A stretch of 61,939 bases of DNA, taken from Balanoglossus misakiensis. Its lineage: Eukaryota; Animalia; Hemichordata. Both the position numbers and the translations under genes were made by a program. Below the pieces are notes generated by a model that saw only the letters and a list, made by a program, of their open reading frames with translations, did no database searches and had not been told where the DNA came from. The stretch is from NCBI GenBank assembly GCA_040954595.2, contig JBECUI020000050.1, positions 1 to 61,939 on the forward strand, written 5' to 3'. Shown here piece by piece: positions 14,018 to 24,800 of this stretch. The number at the start of each line of letters is the position of its first letter. Position 1 is the stretch's first letter.

Positions 14018-17000
14018 TCGAAGACAAGTCAGGCATTTCGTTTCAGAAGGGAGAGGTGTGTATAGATTAAACTAAGTTACCAGGCTAAGACTGCTCTTAC
14101 CAGAAAACACACACGAACAGTACGAGGTCTGCAAATCGTTTGCCCTTCAACTGACAGGGCGCATTGCTATAAGGAAACAGGCGCTGGTTTATTTTTGTTT
14201 GTTCACTGTTCCTATGCAGCGTTTCCTTGTCCAGGGACTTCCAAATGTACAAGTCAGAGGTTAACATTTTGGTTCACAATCCACTCTACGGCTTCCTAAA
14301 AATACCAACATTAAACCTAGCAACTGTCAAAATTCACCAGGATCCTGTGTGGAGTCAATCTGTATACACGGACAGTCTCCCTTCAATTGCTACGTTTTCC
14401 TGCAAAGAGAATTTACCTGCAATATTGATGTAGATATACCCACTAACTTGGCACGGATGTGCAAACAGCGCTTAATCCAGTACAAACAGTAAGTAACACG
14501 AAAAACGTGTCAAAATATGGCGACGTCACACAAGCCACTCTGCATTACTCAACGGACGCTTCAGTCCGATCATGGATTTCCGTTGTCAACAGAAGGTCGC
14601 ACCTTAGTTTACCAGCTTTGGGTATTTTCTAGTAAGTCTTACTACTTTGGATAAAGAAGAATTTATCTGCACACTATGTTGTCTACATGTCCATGTGGTT
14701 GCTAAGCATGGAATGGAAATGAGGGCAAATTCACAAATAAGAATTAGTCCAGCGTGAACTCTACGCACATGTACTACTATCGCTAGCATTTGGCACAGTC
14801 TAAGAATGAGAAGTCCTTCTGAAAGAGTGTTAAGTCAATCAACACGTTGAGTGGGCGTGGCATACGCGTACGCCTATACTCGCATTATTGAAGATGGCGC
14901 GAAGAAACGCAACTTTATTAATTTCCCGATAACTCGAACTTTGAGTCTTTCTTGTAACCCCCCGTGAGTTCAACTGCAGATCTGCAAAATATCATCGTGC
15001 AGACAGCTGAAGTGGGTTGAACAATCATATCGCTACCCCTCCAAAGGCCTTTGCACCCGGAAACCGAATGAGGAAATAAAACCGAAAAATAAACTTCGAG
15101 AAAAGCTCAGACTCATTCAGGGTCGCAACAATAATCTTTGCAAACGTAAGAAAGAGAGTCATAAACTCTTGTTTATCGTGCATTTGTTGATGTTGTGGGC
15201 TCTTTTTTTCGATGTGCGCACTGAAAACTTGAAGAAAGTTTGTCGCGTGCGATGTTGCAGACCCGTACTGTATATAGAACGCATGCCGTTGTTGATAACC
15301 GTAGTATAGCTGTTTATAGGTAAGAGTGAAATCTCCACCTACCTGGGGGAAGCCCCTTTTCTCGATAGGCTTTCCACTTATCCCGTTTGATTTGACTGGT
15401 GATCTCTCTGTCAATGATTTCCCGCATTTTATCTTCTGAGATATTGACTTCCATGTAAGAGTTCCTTGGCACCTGAAAAATGGATGCAATTTAAAATGTC
15501 ACGCTTCAAGACAAATTAAAAAGTAACTGGCAGAAATTTAGCACCCCCAGTGAGGGTATATTTCATCCTCAATGTAGAAAATACGGCTGGCCTAAGTGGT
15601 CCACAAGTATTTGAAACTCAGACATTTTGAAAAGAGTCGCGATTTTTTTCTATTCGTAGCTAGGCGAAGGAAAATTGCAAATCCACACTCATGTATGTAG
15701 TTTTTTTGTTTCATTCTTTTATATTTCCATTTATTTTCATCGGTATTGGTATTGGTAGAGTGACGCGGGGGACCACGGAAATTGTCCTTTTAAGCCATCT
15801 GGACACAGTACTGCTATTTTGAAATTCTTTGTCCAGACTCCAGAATTTATTATTAGATATATACTTCATATAAATGGATAAAGCTTGTCACTTCCTCTTC
15901 ATTAATAAATAGCACAGGCGGCATTTGAGATTTTGGTGGAAGTCGCCACTTCCCTCTCTGTTGTTTAAACACCGAAATTCGATAATATCCGATCCGCCCT
16001 TTTCTAGCTTTTTGTGGAGCGTCGACCTTAAGTTATCTTATCTCCGGTTGCAATATTGTAGTTTCTAGCTGCCCCTGTTAATGAATGATTCGCAATATCT
16101 GCAACACTACGTCGATCGTGTAACAGTTATGGAGGAACTGTGGCTGTACCCCGCACCATGCACTGCCATAGTGCGCTAACCAGTTCAGTTGATTTTTCTG
16201 AAATCCTACTGCTGTTATACTACAGCTCCTTTCTCACAAGTGCCCGGATATCCACAGAACACGATCCTTATGTGTCATGAAAAGCGATGGATTTTCTTTG
16301 GTTGATTATTGACGCGCACACACTTTGTGTTTACGTCATCACTACGGGAGTAGTTCGGGACAACATACCTCGTTGACGACCGCACGTATACAGTACTCTA
16401 CGTTACACCTGGCGCTTCCGATCCACTAAAGCATATTCAGTAAGCACTCGTATACCGAAAAATATATTAAAACGTTGCTAAATTATTACGTTCCTTGACC
16501 GAAGCGATAACAATTATTTTGACATAGAACTTCCTACAGGTAGTCTGGCATACTTACTTCCTATAGGTAGAAGACAGACCATGTTTTGTCGGATGACAAT
16601 AACGCGAGTGGTAGTATGAATAGGCGGGAAGTAGTCAATAAAATTCCGAACAACTGACCGCTCCCACCTTCATTTGTCCTTAGGATACAAAAACTGAAGG
16701 TCAGGCAGCGCAGGTGGGGTTGTCGGGCAAGGGCAGTAATGTTAAATATCACGCATGAGAACACTTTGCCATTATGGAGAAAAAAACACAACATAAACTC
16801 GACTTTATAAGACAGCACCTGCAACCGTCGATCGGGGTTTGGTTATGTGAATTAGAAATCAGTCAAATAGGCAGAGCTTTCTAACACGTAAATTTCGATG
16901 TAATTGGCAAGCGCGATAAACATTAGTATTACGTTAGATATTCGCTATGATATTCGGTCTCTCCAATGATCTTGCTGACAGCTGCGTCGTCCGGCGAAAT

Positions 17001-21860: not shown

Positions 21861-24800
21861 AAGGCCACACCCATAACTCCATAAATAAGATAATGAACCA
21901 TGTAAAGTATGCAGAGAGCGGGTTTAACCTCTGGAATCAAGGTACTATATATGTCAAACATGTGAATAGGTACCATTTTAGTTTTGGTTGTTTCACTACC
22001 TCATTTTTGAAGGTTGCAAGTAACATTTGTTTATTTTCGGTATTGTATGCTGGGATCGGTCAGATCTCACTTTCTTCGTCGATGCATGACAGTCACTGAA
22101 TGGTACCTGGCGCGCTCCAGGCATGTAATTCATCACTGCTCTCGGACATTCAGCGACAAATGAGAGTAATGCAAAGTTTCCAAAATAGGAGCCCCGTGCC
22201 AGTTGGCACACACTTAAGTTCTTACGAGACAAGACTTTCATGATTGTCACGTCAGGCGGACAATGATCAGACATGGATGCAACCATTTCTCACATCGTGA
22301 CGTTTGGTTGGTTTTATTGTCGTTCACCACTACGAGTCTAAACCTTGGAGTAGGATTTATAATCTGGGCGATCCTTTCGGCGTCATTTAATTACATGTAC
22401 AACGGTACTTAAATCCTGAAACGCTATTCACCTCCACGTGGAAACTGCCACTGATATATAGCCTAGGTACTGACCATGCTTGACCTCTTCAACAAACACA
22501 CTGTTCAAAATATCGCCAGTGCTGTTGACTACTTCCTCTCGTCGCCAACAAAACCAGCTGTAACCGGTCTGAAAAATACTTTTGAATGGGAAAAAGTAAA
22601 CAAGTCTGCTTTCGAATGTTTATTTGTCGATACATGTTGACAGATTTTTGTCTCTCATACATATGGGTATGTCAGAAGGTTTCAATGAGACATTAATGAG
22701 TCGTACAATCAAATTGAAATATTTAATAAAGAATTGATTTATTATTCTCAGATCGGGTAAAGTATCCATCTTACTCTAATCACAATTGTTCAAGGCATCG
22801 ATACATTGGTTTTTCGCGTTCACTTTGCCATCATGGCGTTAACTACTATCATGTACAATCAAACAAAATTGCAATATGTAACCTAGTAACGCCTGTATGT
22901 TGCCAAGTGACACTGTATGCGTCTTCAGATTTTTCATTTCCACACACATTCTGTACCGACACAGAAATGCTCCATCTAGTAGGAAACTATTTACTGCAAG
23001 CGAAAAACGGAAACAAACACATATCTTGAAAATTGTGCGAGTTGGGTATTAATTACAACATTTTACAAGAAGAAAATTACATCAAAGGGTAACCTGTTGT
23101 GCATGTCAAGACACATGTATCACACAGGTATTGTGAATAGCGCCCTCACCAGTTGCCACTCTGATAAATCTCCGTCACATCAACGCCGTTTACACATTGT
23201 CGATTGATTTTTGAATCCACATCATTGGATGCACCACTCATGGAACGGTGCTACAGTGTGACATCCATATTATTGTTCAAGAGGCATGGCAGATGGCGGC
23301 CATGTCTTTGTTTGACCCGATCAAAATTTTAATTAAAACGATTCGCACCATATGTGATGCTCATGTGCACTTTAGGAATAAGATCTTATATTGAACAGTG
23401 CACAGAACGTTAAAACAGTTTTCTGGTGTGATTCCATATAAAATACCATACATAAAAACGAGAAAACCAAAACAAGAAACTTTAGGTACAAGGCATAAAT
23501 AATATACGAAAATGAGTTAAATATTAAAGGCAACATCTATTCTAGTAAAGTGGGGGAGTTCATTTGTAAGCTAAAATGTGAATGATTCCGTACTATAAAT
23601 TGACACATTTTACGTGACAGCCATGTCGCGTGAAGTATGTCATTACTCGTTTGATTGTGTCTAAGTTGGTTCTGGTTTTGACCGTTCCAATTTTCACCCT
23701 TGAGTCATTTGATGTTGCACTTGCACTATTATTATGTTACTATGGTTACTGAGCGATAAGTTATACCCGTGGCTGTTCCTCATTGGTAGGTCATTAAATA
23801 TTGCCACTTAAACTTTAGCTACTAGAGTTACAATCCCAGTTGCAATCATTTTGTTATTACATATCTATTCAGGTATAGATACACTCGCCAAGAGAAATAT
23901 CCAATATCTTCTTGGCATTACACTTCATGAAGATATGTATTGGTAAATATGACATTGATATGTAACTAAGAAGTTTCATATCAACGCAAGATTAACGATG
24001 TAGAATTTCCTTGGGGAAAATCGCGCGAAAAGATACAGTTACAAGTACCGACACTCAATTCAATTCCACAAGAAATGAAATGATGTCACGGTTGCAAATG
24101 TATATTTACATTTAATGCGAACATGTACGCAGACGGATGCTTTTAGCGCGTAAATTTTACTGCTAGCCTATTTCTACACACAATTTTCTCAAAGGCCAAT
24201 TTGACTTGCACCCAGGACTAACGGTTAATTTAGTTTAAAATGTCAACCACCTCAGATTTTTCTGGATTCAGTTGAACATATATTGAGAGTGAACTTCAAA
24301 ATGGAAACAGTATGGTCTAAGTACAGCGAATAGGATATTACCATCCGTTATTTTCTTCTCTTTAGGAAATTGATTTCGACCGTCAGGTTAATTTGAGTCA
24401 ATTGTTGTCACAGACTCTCTTGAAATTGCGCTTGTTGGATCTGTTAATCTGCGAGTTGCTTACTCGTTCCCATGGAGACAAGTACAAACCCAAGGAGAAG
24501 CACTCCCATGGACAAGTGGTTTGATCTGGTCTGTCAACACTTTCAGCCTACAAAATGGCGTGCTTATTGAGCAATTCAGACGGCTAAAATTTTTCAAAAT
24601 GGCGGATAACTACTACTCGAACAAACAGAAGGATCATGCTTGAAGTACATCATCTATTTGGGTCAAATAACTGACATTGCGTACTAGATAATGAAAGAAA
24701 ATCAAGAAAGAGTTGGTTTAGTCCTGTGTGCTAGCTAAAACTACTTTCCGTTATAAACACCACAAGAAATGCGTCATTATTCCACGTGTGAGTGGGCTGA

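What the first reader, a model, noticed from the sequence alone, without database searches (positions are those of the whole stretch)
15889..22540. Cluster of PU-box sites in the Spi-like gene's own intron 1 and upstream region, suggesting autoregulation
Seen: the 9-mer ACTTCCTCT (AGAGGAAGT on the gene's sense strand) occurs at 15890, 17332, 20656, 20723 and 22531, all in the same orientation. Further ACTTCC cores lie at 15948, 16529, 16556 and 17014, and GAGGAACT at 16132 and 21658. A rough base-composition estimate predicts well under one such 9-mer in 7 kb, and I noticed no other exact copy in the remaining ~40 kb by eye. Established: the SPI-class consensus is AAAGAGGAAGTG, and vertebrate PU.1 autoregulates through such sites. 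Inference: this is a conserved or convergent autoregulatory loop, which also independently supports the SPI assignment.
Basis: partly seen in the sequence, partly recalled or inferred. Interest (0 to 1): 0.7.

Follow-up and report, generated by a model that had tools for sequence, protein, structure and literature searches.

The report
PU-box cluster at acorn-worm SPI gene
Five exact copies of the DNA word that the blood-cell regulator PU.1 prefers lie around the first exons of an acorn-worm relative of PU.1, far more than chance gives, but this protein has changed three DNA-touching residues and carries motifs predicted to recruit a repressor, so the sites likely take their activating input from sister genes while the protein would damp its own gene rather than boost it as PU.1 does.

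Summary
AGAGGAAGT occurs five times, all on the gene's sense strand, and nowhere else in the window; 0.04-0.06 are expected, and 2 of 400 simulations gave any 9-mer so clustered. In a region fixed from the gene model, GGAAGT ranks first of 1,870 six-mers and stays enriched without the five sites. The flanks are unrelated. The gene is an acorn-worm SPI-lineage ETS gene (ETS domain 93% identical to a Ptychodera flava protein) with a firm and a probable alternative first exon, a PNT domain, an AT-hook-like motif and ALDLS/CLDLS motifs. The reading 'PU.1-like autoregulation' is only partly supported. Both residues that define SPI-class specificity are replaced (Gln226 by Ser, Asn234 by His), a DNA-contacting lysine is Glu, and P. 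flava has eight SPI-like genes, six keeping the Gln. Best reading (0.42): SPI-family input from a Gln-bearing paralog, with this probable CtBP-recruiting repressor feeding back negatively. Conservation, binding and expression could not be tested. The scan's notes held no earlier report of this on other DNA.

The parts
22531..22539 (-). AGAGGAAGT site 1, about 1.3 kb upstream of the exon 1a ATG
21534..21543 (-). CCAAT-box-like word upstream of exon 1a (motif label recalled), with a TATA-like word at 21437-21450; candidate promoter 1
   Evidence: sequence; function untested
21113..21256 (-). Probable first coding exon 1a (48 codons, GTGAGT donor, in frame with the common exon)
   Evidence: best of 671 donor-ended peptides against the N-terminus of P. 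flava isoform X1 (score 36, next 32, mean 14.5): weak homology
20723..20731 (-). AGAGGAAGT site 2 (AAAGAGGAAGT), 389 bases inside the exon 1a donor; overlaps a kB-like word and abuts a TTCnnnGAA word (labels recalled)
20656..20664 (-). AGAGGAAGT site 3, 67 bases from site 2 in the same orientation; overlaps a RUNX-type TGTGGT (label recalled)
18049..18059 (-). TATA-like word about 85 bases upstream of the exon 1b ATG; candidate promoter 2
   Evidence: sequence; untested
17900..17965 (-). Alternative first coding exon 1b (22 codons, GTAAGT donor)
   Evidence: tblastn 91% over 23 residues to P. flava isoform X2, E 4e-9; in frame
17332..17340 (-). AGAGGAAGT site 4, 567 bases inside the exon 1b donor
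15938..17637 (.). Seven further GGAAGT cores in both orientations (15938, 15948, 16529, 16556, 16627, 17014, 17632), including an inverted pair at 15938-15953; two more lie at 19633 and 21284
15890..15898 (-). AGAGGAAGT site 5 (GAAGAGGAAGTG), 418 bases upstream of the common exon 2
15343..15472 (-). Common exon 2 (start of the PNT region)
13625..13840 (-). Exon 3, SAM/PNT domain
   Evidence: Pfam PF02198, E 5.4e-6, 26.7 bits over a cut-off of 24
12920..13149 (-). Exon 4, with a His/Gln-rich tract
11581..12418 (-). Exon 5: ALDLS (12326-12340) and CLDLS (12275-12289), candidate CtBP-binding motifs; AT-hook-like KRGRP motif (about 11612-11629)
   Evidence: ALDLS binds CtBP in RAI2 (PMC11187106); AT-hook label recalled, no Pfam hit
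11112..11434 (-). Exon 6, SPI-type ETS domain; Ser (11250-11252), His (11226-11228) and Glu (11199-11201) at PU.1 Q226, N234 and K243
   Evidence: Pfam PF00178 E 3e-24; PDB top hits SpiD and PU.1 with ungapped alignment

Best explanation
The five AGAGGAAGT words are a real, non-random cluster in the 5' region of an acorn-worm SPI-lineage ETS gene; they are likely SPI-family binding sites through which a glutamine-bearing sister paralog would switch the gene on, while the gene's own product, predicted to be a CtBP-recruiting repressor, would compete for the same sites and limit its own expression. Shown: the enrichment, the gene model, the three residue changes, the motifs, and the paralog family in three other acorn worms. 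The likely setting is a phagocyte-like cell, which is extrapolated from other deuterostomes.
For: Enrichment: 5 observed versus 0.04-0.06 expected; 2 of 400 simulations reach it with any word in any place. In the region fixed from the gene model (15473-22756), GGAAGT is first of 1,870 six-mers, AGGAAGT first of 4,252 seven-mers and AGAGGAAGT first of 6,652 nine-mers. With the five masked, 9 GGAAGT remain against 3.1 in shuffles (P 0.006) and 14 in 38.5 kb outside (P 0.005). The word is of class III type (G at -2, A at +4; PMC2905244); CCGGAART occurs 0 times and GGATGT 0 times (3.4 expected) in the region. The region has CpG o/e 0.97 against 0.72 upstream. The 67-base same-strand pair resembles PU.1 clusters in activated genes (half within 80 bp, head to tail; PMC3467057). 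Reader: Gln is present in 141 of 150 aligned relatives and Lys/Arg at 243 in 142 of 150, but this protein and its Ptychodera and Glandiceps orthologs have Ser/His/Glu. Six of eight P. flava SPI-like proteins keep the Gln. Repressor: a [PA][LI]D[LM]S motif is in 6 of 6 His-bearing acorn-worm proteins (canonical PLDLS in Glandiceps), in 0 of 10 other acorn-worm paralogs and in 1 of 147 other stored proteins. Precedent: Spi-C represses at a site that Spi-B activates (PMC7225353).
Against: No binding, conservation or expression data. The paralogs were seen in other acorn worms, not in this genome, and none lies in this window. Losing the Gln need not stop binding: PU.1 Q226E keeps the classic motif (PMC13757776), and His favours A at +4, so self-binding remains open. 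The residue rules come from ELF4 and PU.1 and were never measured for Ser or for Glu243. The six motif-bearing proteins form one clade (support 83/76), so 6 versus 0 is one event, not six. Tandem ALDLS in RAI2 inactivates CtBP rather than using it. None of 14 partner or promoter motif patterns (RUNX, GATA, C/EBP, kB, STAT, IRF and others) is clearly enriched; the lowest values were shuffle P 0.037 for CAGCTG and binomial P 0.048 for YGYGGT, uncorrected. One-mismatch neighbours of the 9-mer are almost absent in the region (1 copy among 27 words), which is sharper than a typical motif. The real background is only the 38 kb of this window.
Confidence: 0.42

Rival explanations
1. PU.1-style positive autoregulation: this protein binds the sites and activates its own promoters.
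For: Top PDB matches are SpiD, PU.1 and Spi-B (78-80 bits at best, against 62 for ELF5 and 51 for ETV6). R230, R233 and K217 are kept. Q226E PU.1 still binds the classic motif, and PU.1 is reported to autoregulate through proximal and distal GGAA sites (PMC13757776). A Gln-rich tract could activate (inference).
Against: Ser/His/Glu at Q226/N234/K243; CtBP-type motifs conserved in the orthologs; Gln-bearing paralogs exist. Even for PU.1, fast direct autoregulation is disputed (PMC8624737, abstract only).
Confidence: 0.17
2. The sites are functional but are read by a non-SPI ETS factor (ELF/ESE, ETV6, GABP or ERG type), so the gene is simply an ETS target.
For: All ETS classes share the core and their profiles are similar (PMC2905244). 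The nine extra GGAAGT cores have varied 5' flanks, three of them TAGGAAGT. PU.1 motif pairs overlap the consensus of other ETS factors (PMC6972792).
Against: The five strongest words have G at -2, the class III mark; CCGGAART is absent and CAGGAAG is not enriched (1 versus 0.63).
Confidence: 0.15
3. The cluster is neutral: chance, or remnants of a repeat family that carries the word.
For: The word and interval were picked after the fact, the simulation is a Markov-3 model rather than a real genome, and 2 of 400 runs did reach the value. No genome-wide background or repeat library was available. Two minor cores are a local duplicate.
Against: The 30-base flanks of the five sites match at 4-12 of 30 positions, as chance gives, and 300-base surroundings have no local alignment above a score of 22. 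No repeat found in the window overlaps a site. None of 87 open frames in 14-25 kb hits Pfam. The top word of an unbiased ranking is the family's own site.
Confidence: 0.15
4. The word acts in RNA, as a purine-rich element on the pre-mRNA, which would explain the strand bias.
For: All five words and 8 of 9 AGGAAGT are on the sense strand with no purine skew in the region (0.50); four lie in the intron of the exon 1a transcript.
Against: Site 22531 is about 1.1 kb upstream of the candidate promoter 1; the sites are 389 or more bases from splice sites; 5 of 14 GGAAGT are antisense; same-strand clustering is also reported for PU.1 DNA sites.
Confidence: 0.05

Closest known systems
Vertebrate PU.1/SPI1 autoregulation (promoter site and upstream element about 14 kb away)
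   Same: An SPI-lineage ETS gene with SPI-type GGAA sites in its own regulatory DNA (PMC13757776, passages).
   Different: Here the sites lie within 1.3 kb upstream and in the first introns around two first exons. The protein has a PNT domain, an AT-hook-like motif and CtBP-type motifs, which the vertebrate-type SPI proteins checked lack (3 of 3 without PNT; 5 of 5 without either motif), and it lacks Q226, N234 and K243.
Spi-C opposing Spi-B/PU.1
   Same: An SPI paralog that represses at sites a sister activates (PMC7225353, passages).
   Different: Spi-C-type sequences in the alignment keep Gln, Asn and Lys. The acorn-worm group is a separate clade (99/96), so any likeness of role would be convergent.
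ETV6/TEL (class IIb ETS repressor)
   Same: His at the +4-reading position (PMC2905244). A PNT domain and corepressor recruitment are also shared (ETV6 side recalled).
   Different: The ETS domain scores 51 bits against ETV6 and 78 against PU.1. Self-association of this PNT domain is not established.
Homotypic PU.1 site clusters at target genes
   Same: Several sites near the start, with a close same-strand pair (PMC3467057; PMC6972792; passages).
   Different: Only one pair here is close (67 bases, outside the 12-50 bp range of PMC6972792); the others are 1.4-3.3 kb apart.
Ptychodera flava XP_070558063.1 and isoforms; Glandiceps talaboti XP_077994819.1
   Same: Orthologs by tree (98/86): same domains, same Ser/His/Glu, DLS motifs; P. 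flava shows alternative N-termini matching exon 1b and probably 1a.

Membership tests
ETS family | ETS domain with the two helix-3 arginines | tested here: met
   PF00178 E 3e-24; both arginines align to PU.1
SPI subfamily (by descent) | ETS domain closest to PU.1/Spi-B/Spi-C/SpiD | tested here: met
   The first 12 of 67 PDB matches are SPI proteins
SPI subfamily (by descent) | Groups with vertebrate SPI proteins apart from other ETS subfamilies in a tree | tested here: inconclusive
   50 SPI-like rows are split from 6 outgroup rows with 96/89, but the outgroup is only three proteins, with long branches and no named ELF, ESE or ETV6; 106 columns; 56 rows chosen by me from the stored proteins
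Class III DNA-binding specificity (Wei et al. 2010) | Gln at PU.1 226 (mouse 228), giving G at -2 | tested here: not met
   Ser here; Gln in 141 of 150 relatives
Class III DNA-binding specificity (Wei et al. 2010) | Asn at PU.1 234 (mouse 236), giving A at +4 and tolerating C at +5 | tested here: not met
   His here, the class IIb residue; Asn in 129 of 150
Class III DNA-binding specificity (Wei et al. 2010) | Measured preference for GAGGAA-type sites | not testable with these tools
   Needs SELEX, PBM or EMSA
PU.1-type DNA contacts | Lys217 and wing Lys243 | tested here: not met
   K217 kept; 243 is Glu (Lys/Arg in 142 of 150)
Autoregulatory site cluster | Family-type sites enriched in the gene's own regulatory region | tested here: met
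Autoregulatory site cluster | Sites not part of a repeat family | tested here: inconclusive
   No shared flanks and no overlap with repeats inside the window; no genome-wide test was possible
Autoregulatory site cluster | Sites conserved at the orthologous locus | not testable with these tools
   No acorn-worm DNA was reachable
Autoregulatory site cluster | The gene's own product binds the sites and changes its transcription | not testable with these tools
   Needs ChIP and perturbation
CtBP-recruiting repressor | PxDLS-type motif conserved among orthologs | tested here: met
   ALDLS and CLDLS here and in P. flava, PLDLS in Glandiceps, PIDMS in Saccoglossus; ALDLS binds CtBP in RAI2
CtBP-recruiting repressor | CtBP binding and repression | not testable with these tools

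The most novel reading that the evidence does not exclude
Acorn worms split their expanded SPI family into activators and an SPI-derived, ETV6-like repressor (PNT domain, AT-hook, CtBP motifs, His in the recognition helix), and this site cluster is the wiring of that pair: the activator turns the repressor on and the repressor shuts the loop. This would place SPI-site feedback outside chordates and parallel the Spi-B/Spi-C antagonism by a separate route.
Probability: 0.3. Interest if true: 0.65.

Novelty: new variant of a known kind. Interest (0 to 1): 0.45.

Why it matters
Spi1 homologs are reported as highly expressed in deuterostome macrophage lineages (PMC13250551, passage), but how the SPI network was wired outside vertebrates is little known. 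This locus offers five defined sites and a defined set of candidate readers, so a reporter and a binding assay can say whether SPI feedback predates chordates and what sign it has. The protein is also a natural test of the ETS recognition code, since it replaces both class III residues and a DNA-contacting lysine. Self- and cross-regulation through site clusters is a known kind of circuit, so the interest is moderate.

Tried and rejected
Whole genome: none is held for this window, so no genome-wide background, repeat library or paralog count. Sequencing runs: no RNA holder listed; this says nothing about expression. Metagenome scans: none for the ETS domain (123 pattern matches, 0 relatives); four loci for the family alignment, all vertebrate-type last-exon pieces with little or no 5' DNA and 0 AGAGGAAGT, so useless as a conservation test. 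PNT self-association fold: no verdict, score 0.00, alignment not used; no evidence either way. Single-sequence model of the ETS domain: pLDDT 53, not used. Partner motifs: none clearly enriched, so the RUNX, kB, STAT and octamer words next to 20656/20723 are left as anecdotes. A first exon matching P. flava isoform X3 was not found (best score 32 among 612 donor-ended peptides, no outlier). Rfam: 0 matches in 9800-61939. Transposon coding remnants: 0 of 87 frames in 14-25 kb hit Pfam (8 of the 95 frames listed were left out: six over the GA microsatellite and two already scanned). Exon 1a as the only first exon was rejected. A structural paper on PU.1 site selection was not held. No position weight matrix was available, so exact and IUPAC words replaced the FIMO scan.
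Full report
OBSERVATION. ACTTCCTCT starts at 15890, 17332, 20656, 20723 and 22531 on +, and nowhere else on either strand. Markov models of order 0-4 trained on the non-repeat window or outside the region expect 0.04-0.06 copies in the 6.65-kb span; higher orders trained on the region itself absorb the signal. Because word and span were chosen after the fact, I scored every 9-mer in every 6,651-base window. 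This word ranks first (log10 P -8.3, next -5.2), and 2 of 400 Markov-3 simulations gave any word as extreme. At lengths 8 and 10 no word stood out as far in that scan. In a region fixed from the gene model (last acceptor to 1.5 kb upstream of exon 1a, 7,009 unmasked bases), GGAAGT is first of 1,870 six-mers (14 versus 2.7), AGGAAGT first of 4,252 seven-mers and AGAGGAAGT first of 6,652 nine-mers. That region was drawn after I had seen the sites, so it is not fully blind. With the five masked, 9 GGAAGT remain against 3.1 in 1,000 dinucleotide shuffles (P 0.006). GGAA alone is not enriched (51 versus 54). GGATGT is absent (3.4 expected) and CCGGAART is absent. Flanks of the five are unrelated, no repeat found in the window overlaps them, and 0 of 87 frames nearby hit Pfam.

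THE GENE. It lies on the minus strand. Exons 15472-15343, 13840-13625, 13149-12920, 12418-11581 and 11434-11112 have AG/GT ends and give one open frame with either of two first exons. Exon 1b (17965-17900) is 91% identical to the start of P. flava isoform X2. Exon 1a (21256-21113) is the best of 671 donor-ended peptides against the start of isoform X1, by a small margin (36 versus 32), so it is probable rather than proven. With 1a, four sites are in intron 1 and one is upstream; with 1b, two are in intron 1 and three upstream. CCAAT-like and TATA-like words precede 1a, and a TATA-like word precedes 1b (labels recalled). The region has CpG o/e 0.97 against 0.72 further upstream. The ETS domain is 93% identical to a P. 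flava protein and 70-72% to two Glandiceps proteins, so the source is likely an acorn worm close to Ptychodera.

IS IT SPI? By descent, very likely. The first 12 of 67 PDB matches are SpiD, PU.1 and Spi-B. A tree of 56 ETS domains separates 50 SPI-like rows from 6 outgroup rows (96/89) and puts the window protein with its Ptychodera and Glandiceps orthologs (98/86) inside an acorn-worm clade (99/96); the outgroup is thin and long-branched. Unlike the three vertebrate-type SPI proteins scanned, most acorn-worm ones, a sea star one and one amphioxus one carry a PNT domain, which suggests that vertebrates lost it (inference). By DNA-reading residues, it is not class III. Wei et al. (PMC2905244; passages and the first part of Results read) trace class III specificity to a Gln (G at -2) and an Asn (+4, +5), and class IIb (ETV6/7) to a His at the Asn position. 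A review (PMC13757776; passages and section 6 read) names R230, R233, K217 and K243 as the DNA contacts. Counting along the ungapped alignment, this protein has Ser226, His234 and Glu243. Among 150 aligned relatives (three isoforms dropped), 141 have Gln, 129 Asn and 142 Lys or Arg. The Ptychodera and Glandiceps orthologs share Ser/His/Glu, so the change is old.

WHO READS THE SITES. All five have G at -2 and A at +4, the class III marks. P. flava has eight SPI-like proteins among those I had named (P0002, P0009, P0011/P0156, P0019, P0029, P0034, P0070, P0137), six on one 63-Mb contig and six with the Gln; Glandiceps and Saccoglossus also have several. I named only 23 of the hits, so this is a minimum. 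That this species has the same set is inferred; tblastn found no second ETS gene in the window. The window protein has ALDLS and CLDLS 17 residues apart. A [PA][LI]D[LM]S motif is in all 6 His-bearing acorn-worm proteins, none of 10 other acorn-worm paralogs and 1 of 147 other stored proteins. The six are one weakly supported clade, so this is one gain. ALDLS binds CtBP in RAI2, where the tandem form polymerises and inactivates CtBP (PMC11187106; passages), so the sign of the effect is not certain.

MECHANISM. My best reading (0.42) is that a Gln-bearing paralog binds the sites and activates the two promoters, and that this protein, binding GGAA sites less selectively and perhaps more weakly, helped by its AT-hook, recruits CtBP and limits the output. 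Spi-C does this to Spi-B at one tested element (PMC7225353; passages). Against it: PU.1 Q226E still binds the classic motif, so self-binding is not excluded; nothing was measured for Ser or Glu243; partner motifs are not clearly enriched. Rivals are positive autoregulation (0.17), a non-SPI ETS reader (0.15), a neutral cluster (0.15) and an RNA-level element (0.05). Same-strand PU.1 clusters near starts of activated genes are described (PMC3467057; passages), as are close motif pairs (PMC6972792; passages). Fast direct autoregulation of PU.1 is itself disputed (PMC8624737; abstract and outline only).

WHAT IS IN PRINT. Four searches aimed at invertebrate or acorn-worm SPI genes (listings seen) returned no title on this gene, this family expansion or these sites. 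Term look-ups in the main text of two acorn-worm genomics papers found no mention of Spi or PU1 genes (PMC13554239; PMC11618098); their supplements were not opened and may list the gene. Spi1 homologs are mentioned for deuterostome macrophages (PMC13250551; passages) and for tunicate immune cells (10.1101/2025.05.20.655184; one passage). PMC13401050 (passages) confirms Q226 as an interface residue. Most subscription papers are not searchable here, including the older sea urchin ETS surveys (recalled, not seen). The scan's own notes had nothing near this place or for this protein and nothing with all the words.

VERDICT. A real cluster of SPI-type sites at an SPI-lineage gene. Novelty: new variant of a known kind. 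Interest 0.45.

Noticed in passing
window 1-9810: An 87-base satellite in two arrays (1-6935, about 80 copies; 6939-9810, about 33 copies) whose consensus units read as reverse complements of each other, so the array switches orientation near 6937. Identical open frames recur 3,565 bases apart, which suggests a higher-order repeat. It ends 1.3 kb past the gene's stop codon.
   Followed up: no
proteins P0002-P0169: Acorn worms have an expanded SPI-like family with PNT domains and mostly an AT-hook-like motif, under misleading automatic names (ERG-like, ETV7-like, Elf-3-like, ets-4-like). Most of the named acorn-worm proteins have Asp or His instead of Asn234.
   Followed up: partly
window 20650-20815: A dense 160-base patch on the minus strand: octamer ATTTGCAT (20806-20813), TTCnnnGAA (20732), PU box overlapping a kB-like word (20719-20731), GATA word (20688), RUNX word overlapping the second PU box (20664). 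Labels are recalled and none is enriched region-wide; it is the best candidate enhancer.
   Followed up: partly
window 18627-18867 and 19005-19320: Local duplication between exons 1a and 1b (148 and 87 bases, 95% identical); it holds no GGAAGT.
   Followed up: no
window 18116-18126: TGCTGACTCAG on the minus strand, a Maf/AP-1-type word (label recalled) about 60 bases upstream of the exon 1b TATA-like word. Vertebrate Spic is repressed by Bach factors.
   Followed up: no
window 13361-13399, 32144-32206, 61239-61301; 25492-25568 and 49592-49668: Short dispersed repeats (79-93% alike), one copy inside intron 3; probably small non-autonomous elements.
   Followed up: no
window 12598 and 16369: A CAGGAAGTG site on + in intron 4, and a good GTATGT donor-like word near 16369 on the minus strand that could end a non-coding first exon, as P. 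flava has an isoform starting at an internal Met.
   Followed up: no
window 22757-61939: 39 kb upstream with no open frame above about 135 codons, no ETS paralog and no Rfam match; not scanned against Pfam beyond 25000. One GAGGAAGTG lies at 55702 in the same orientation as the five.
   Followed up: partly
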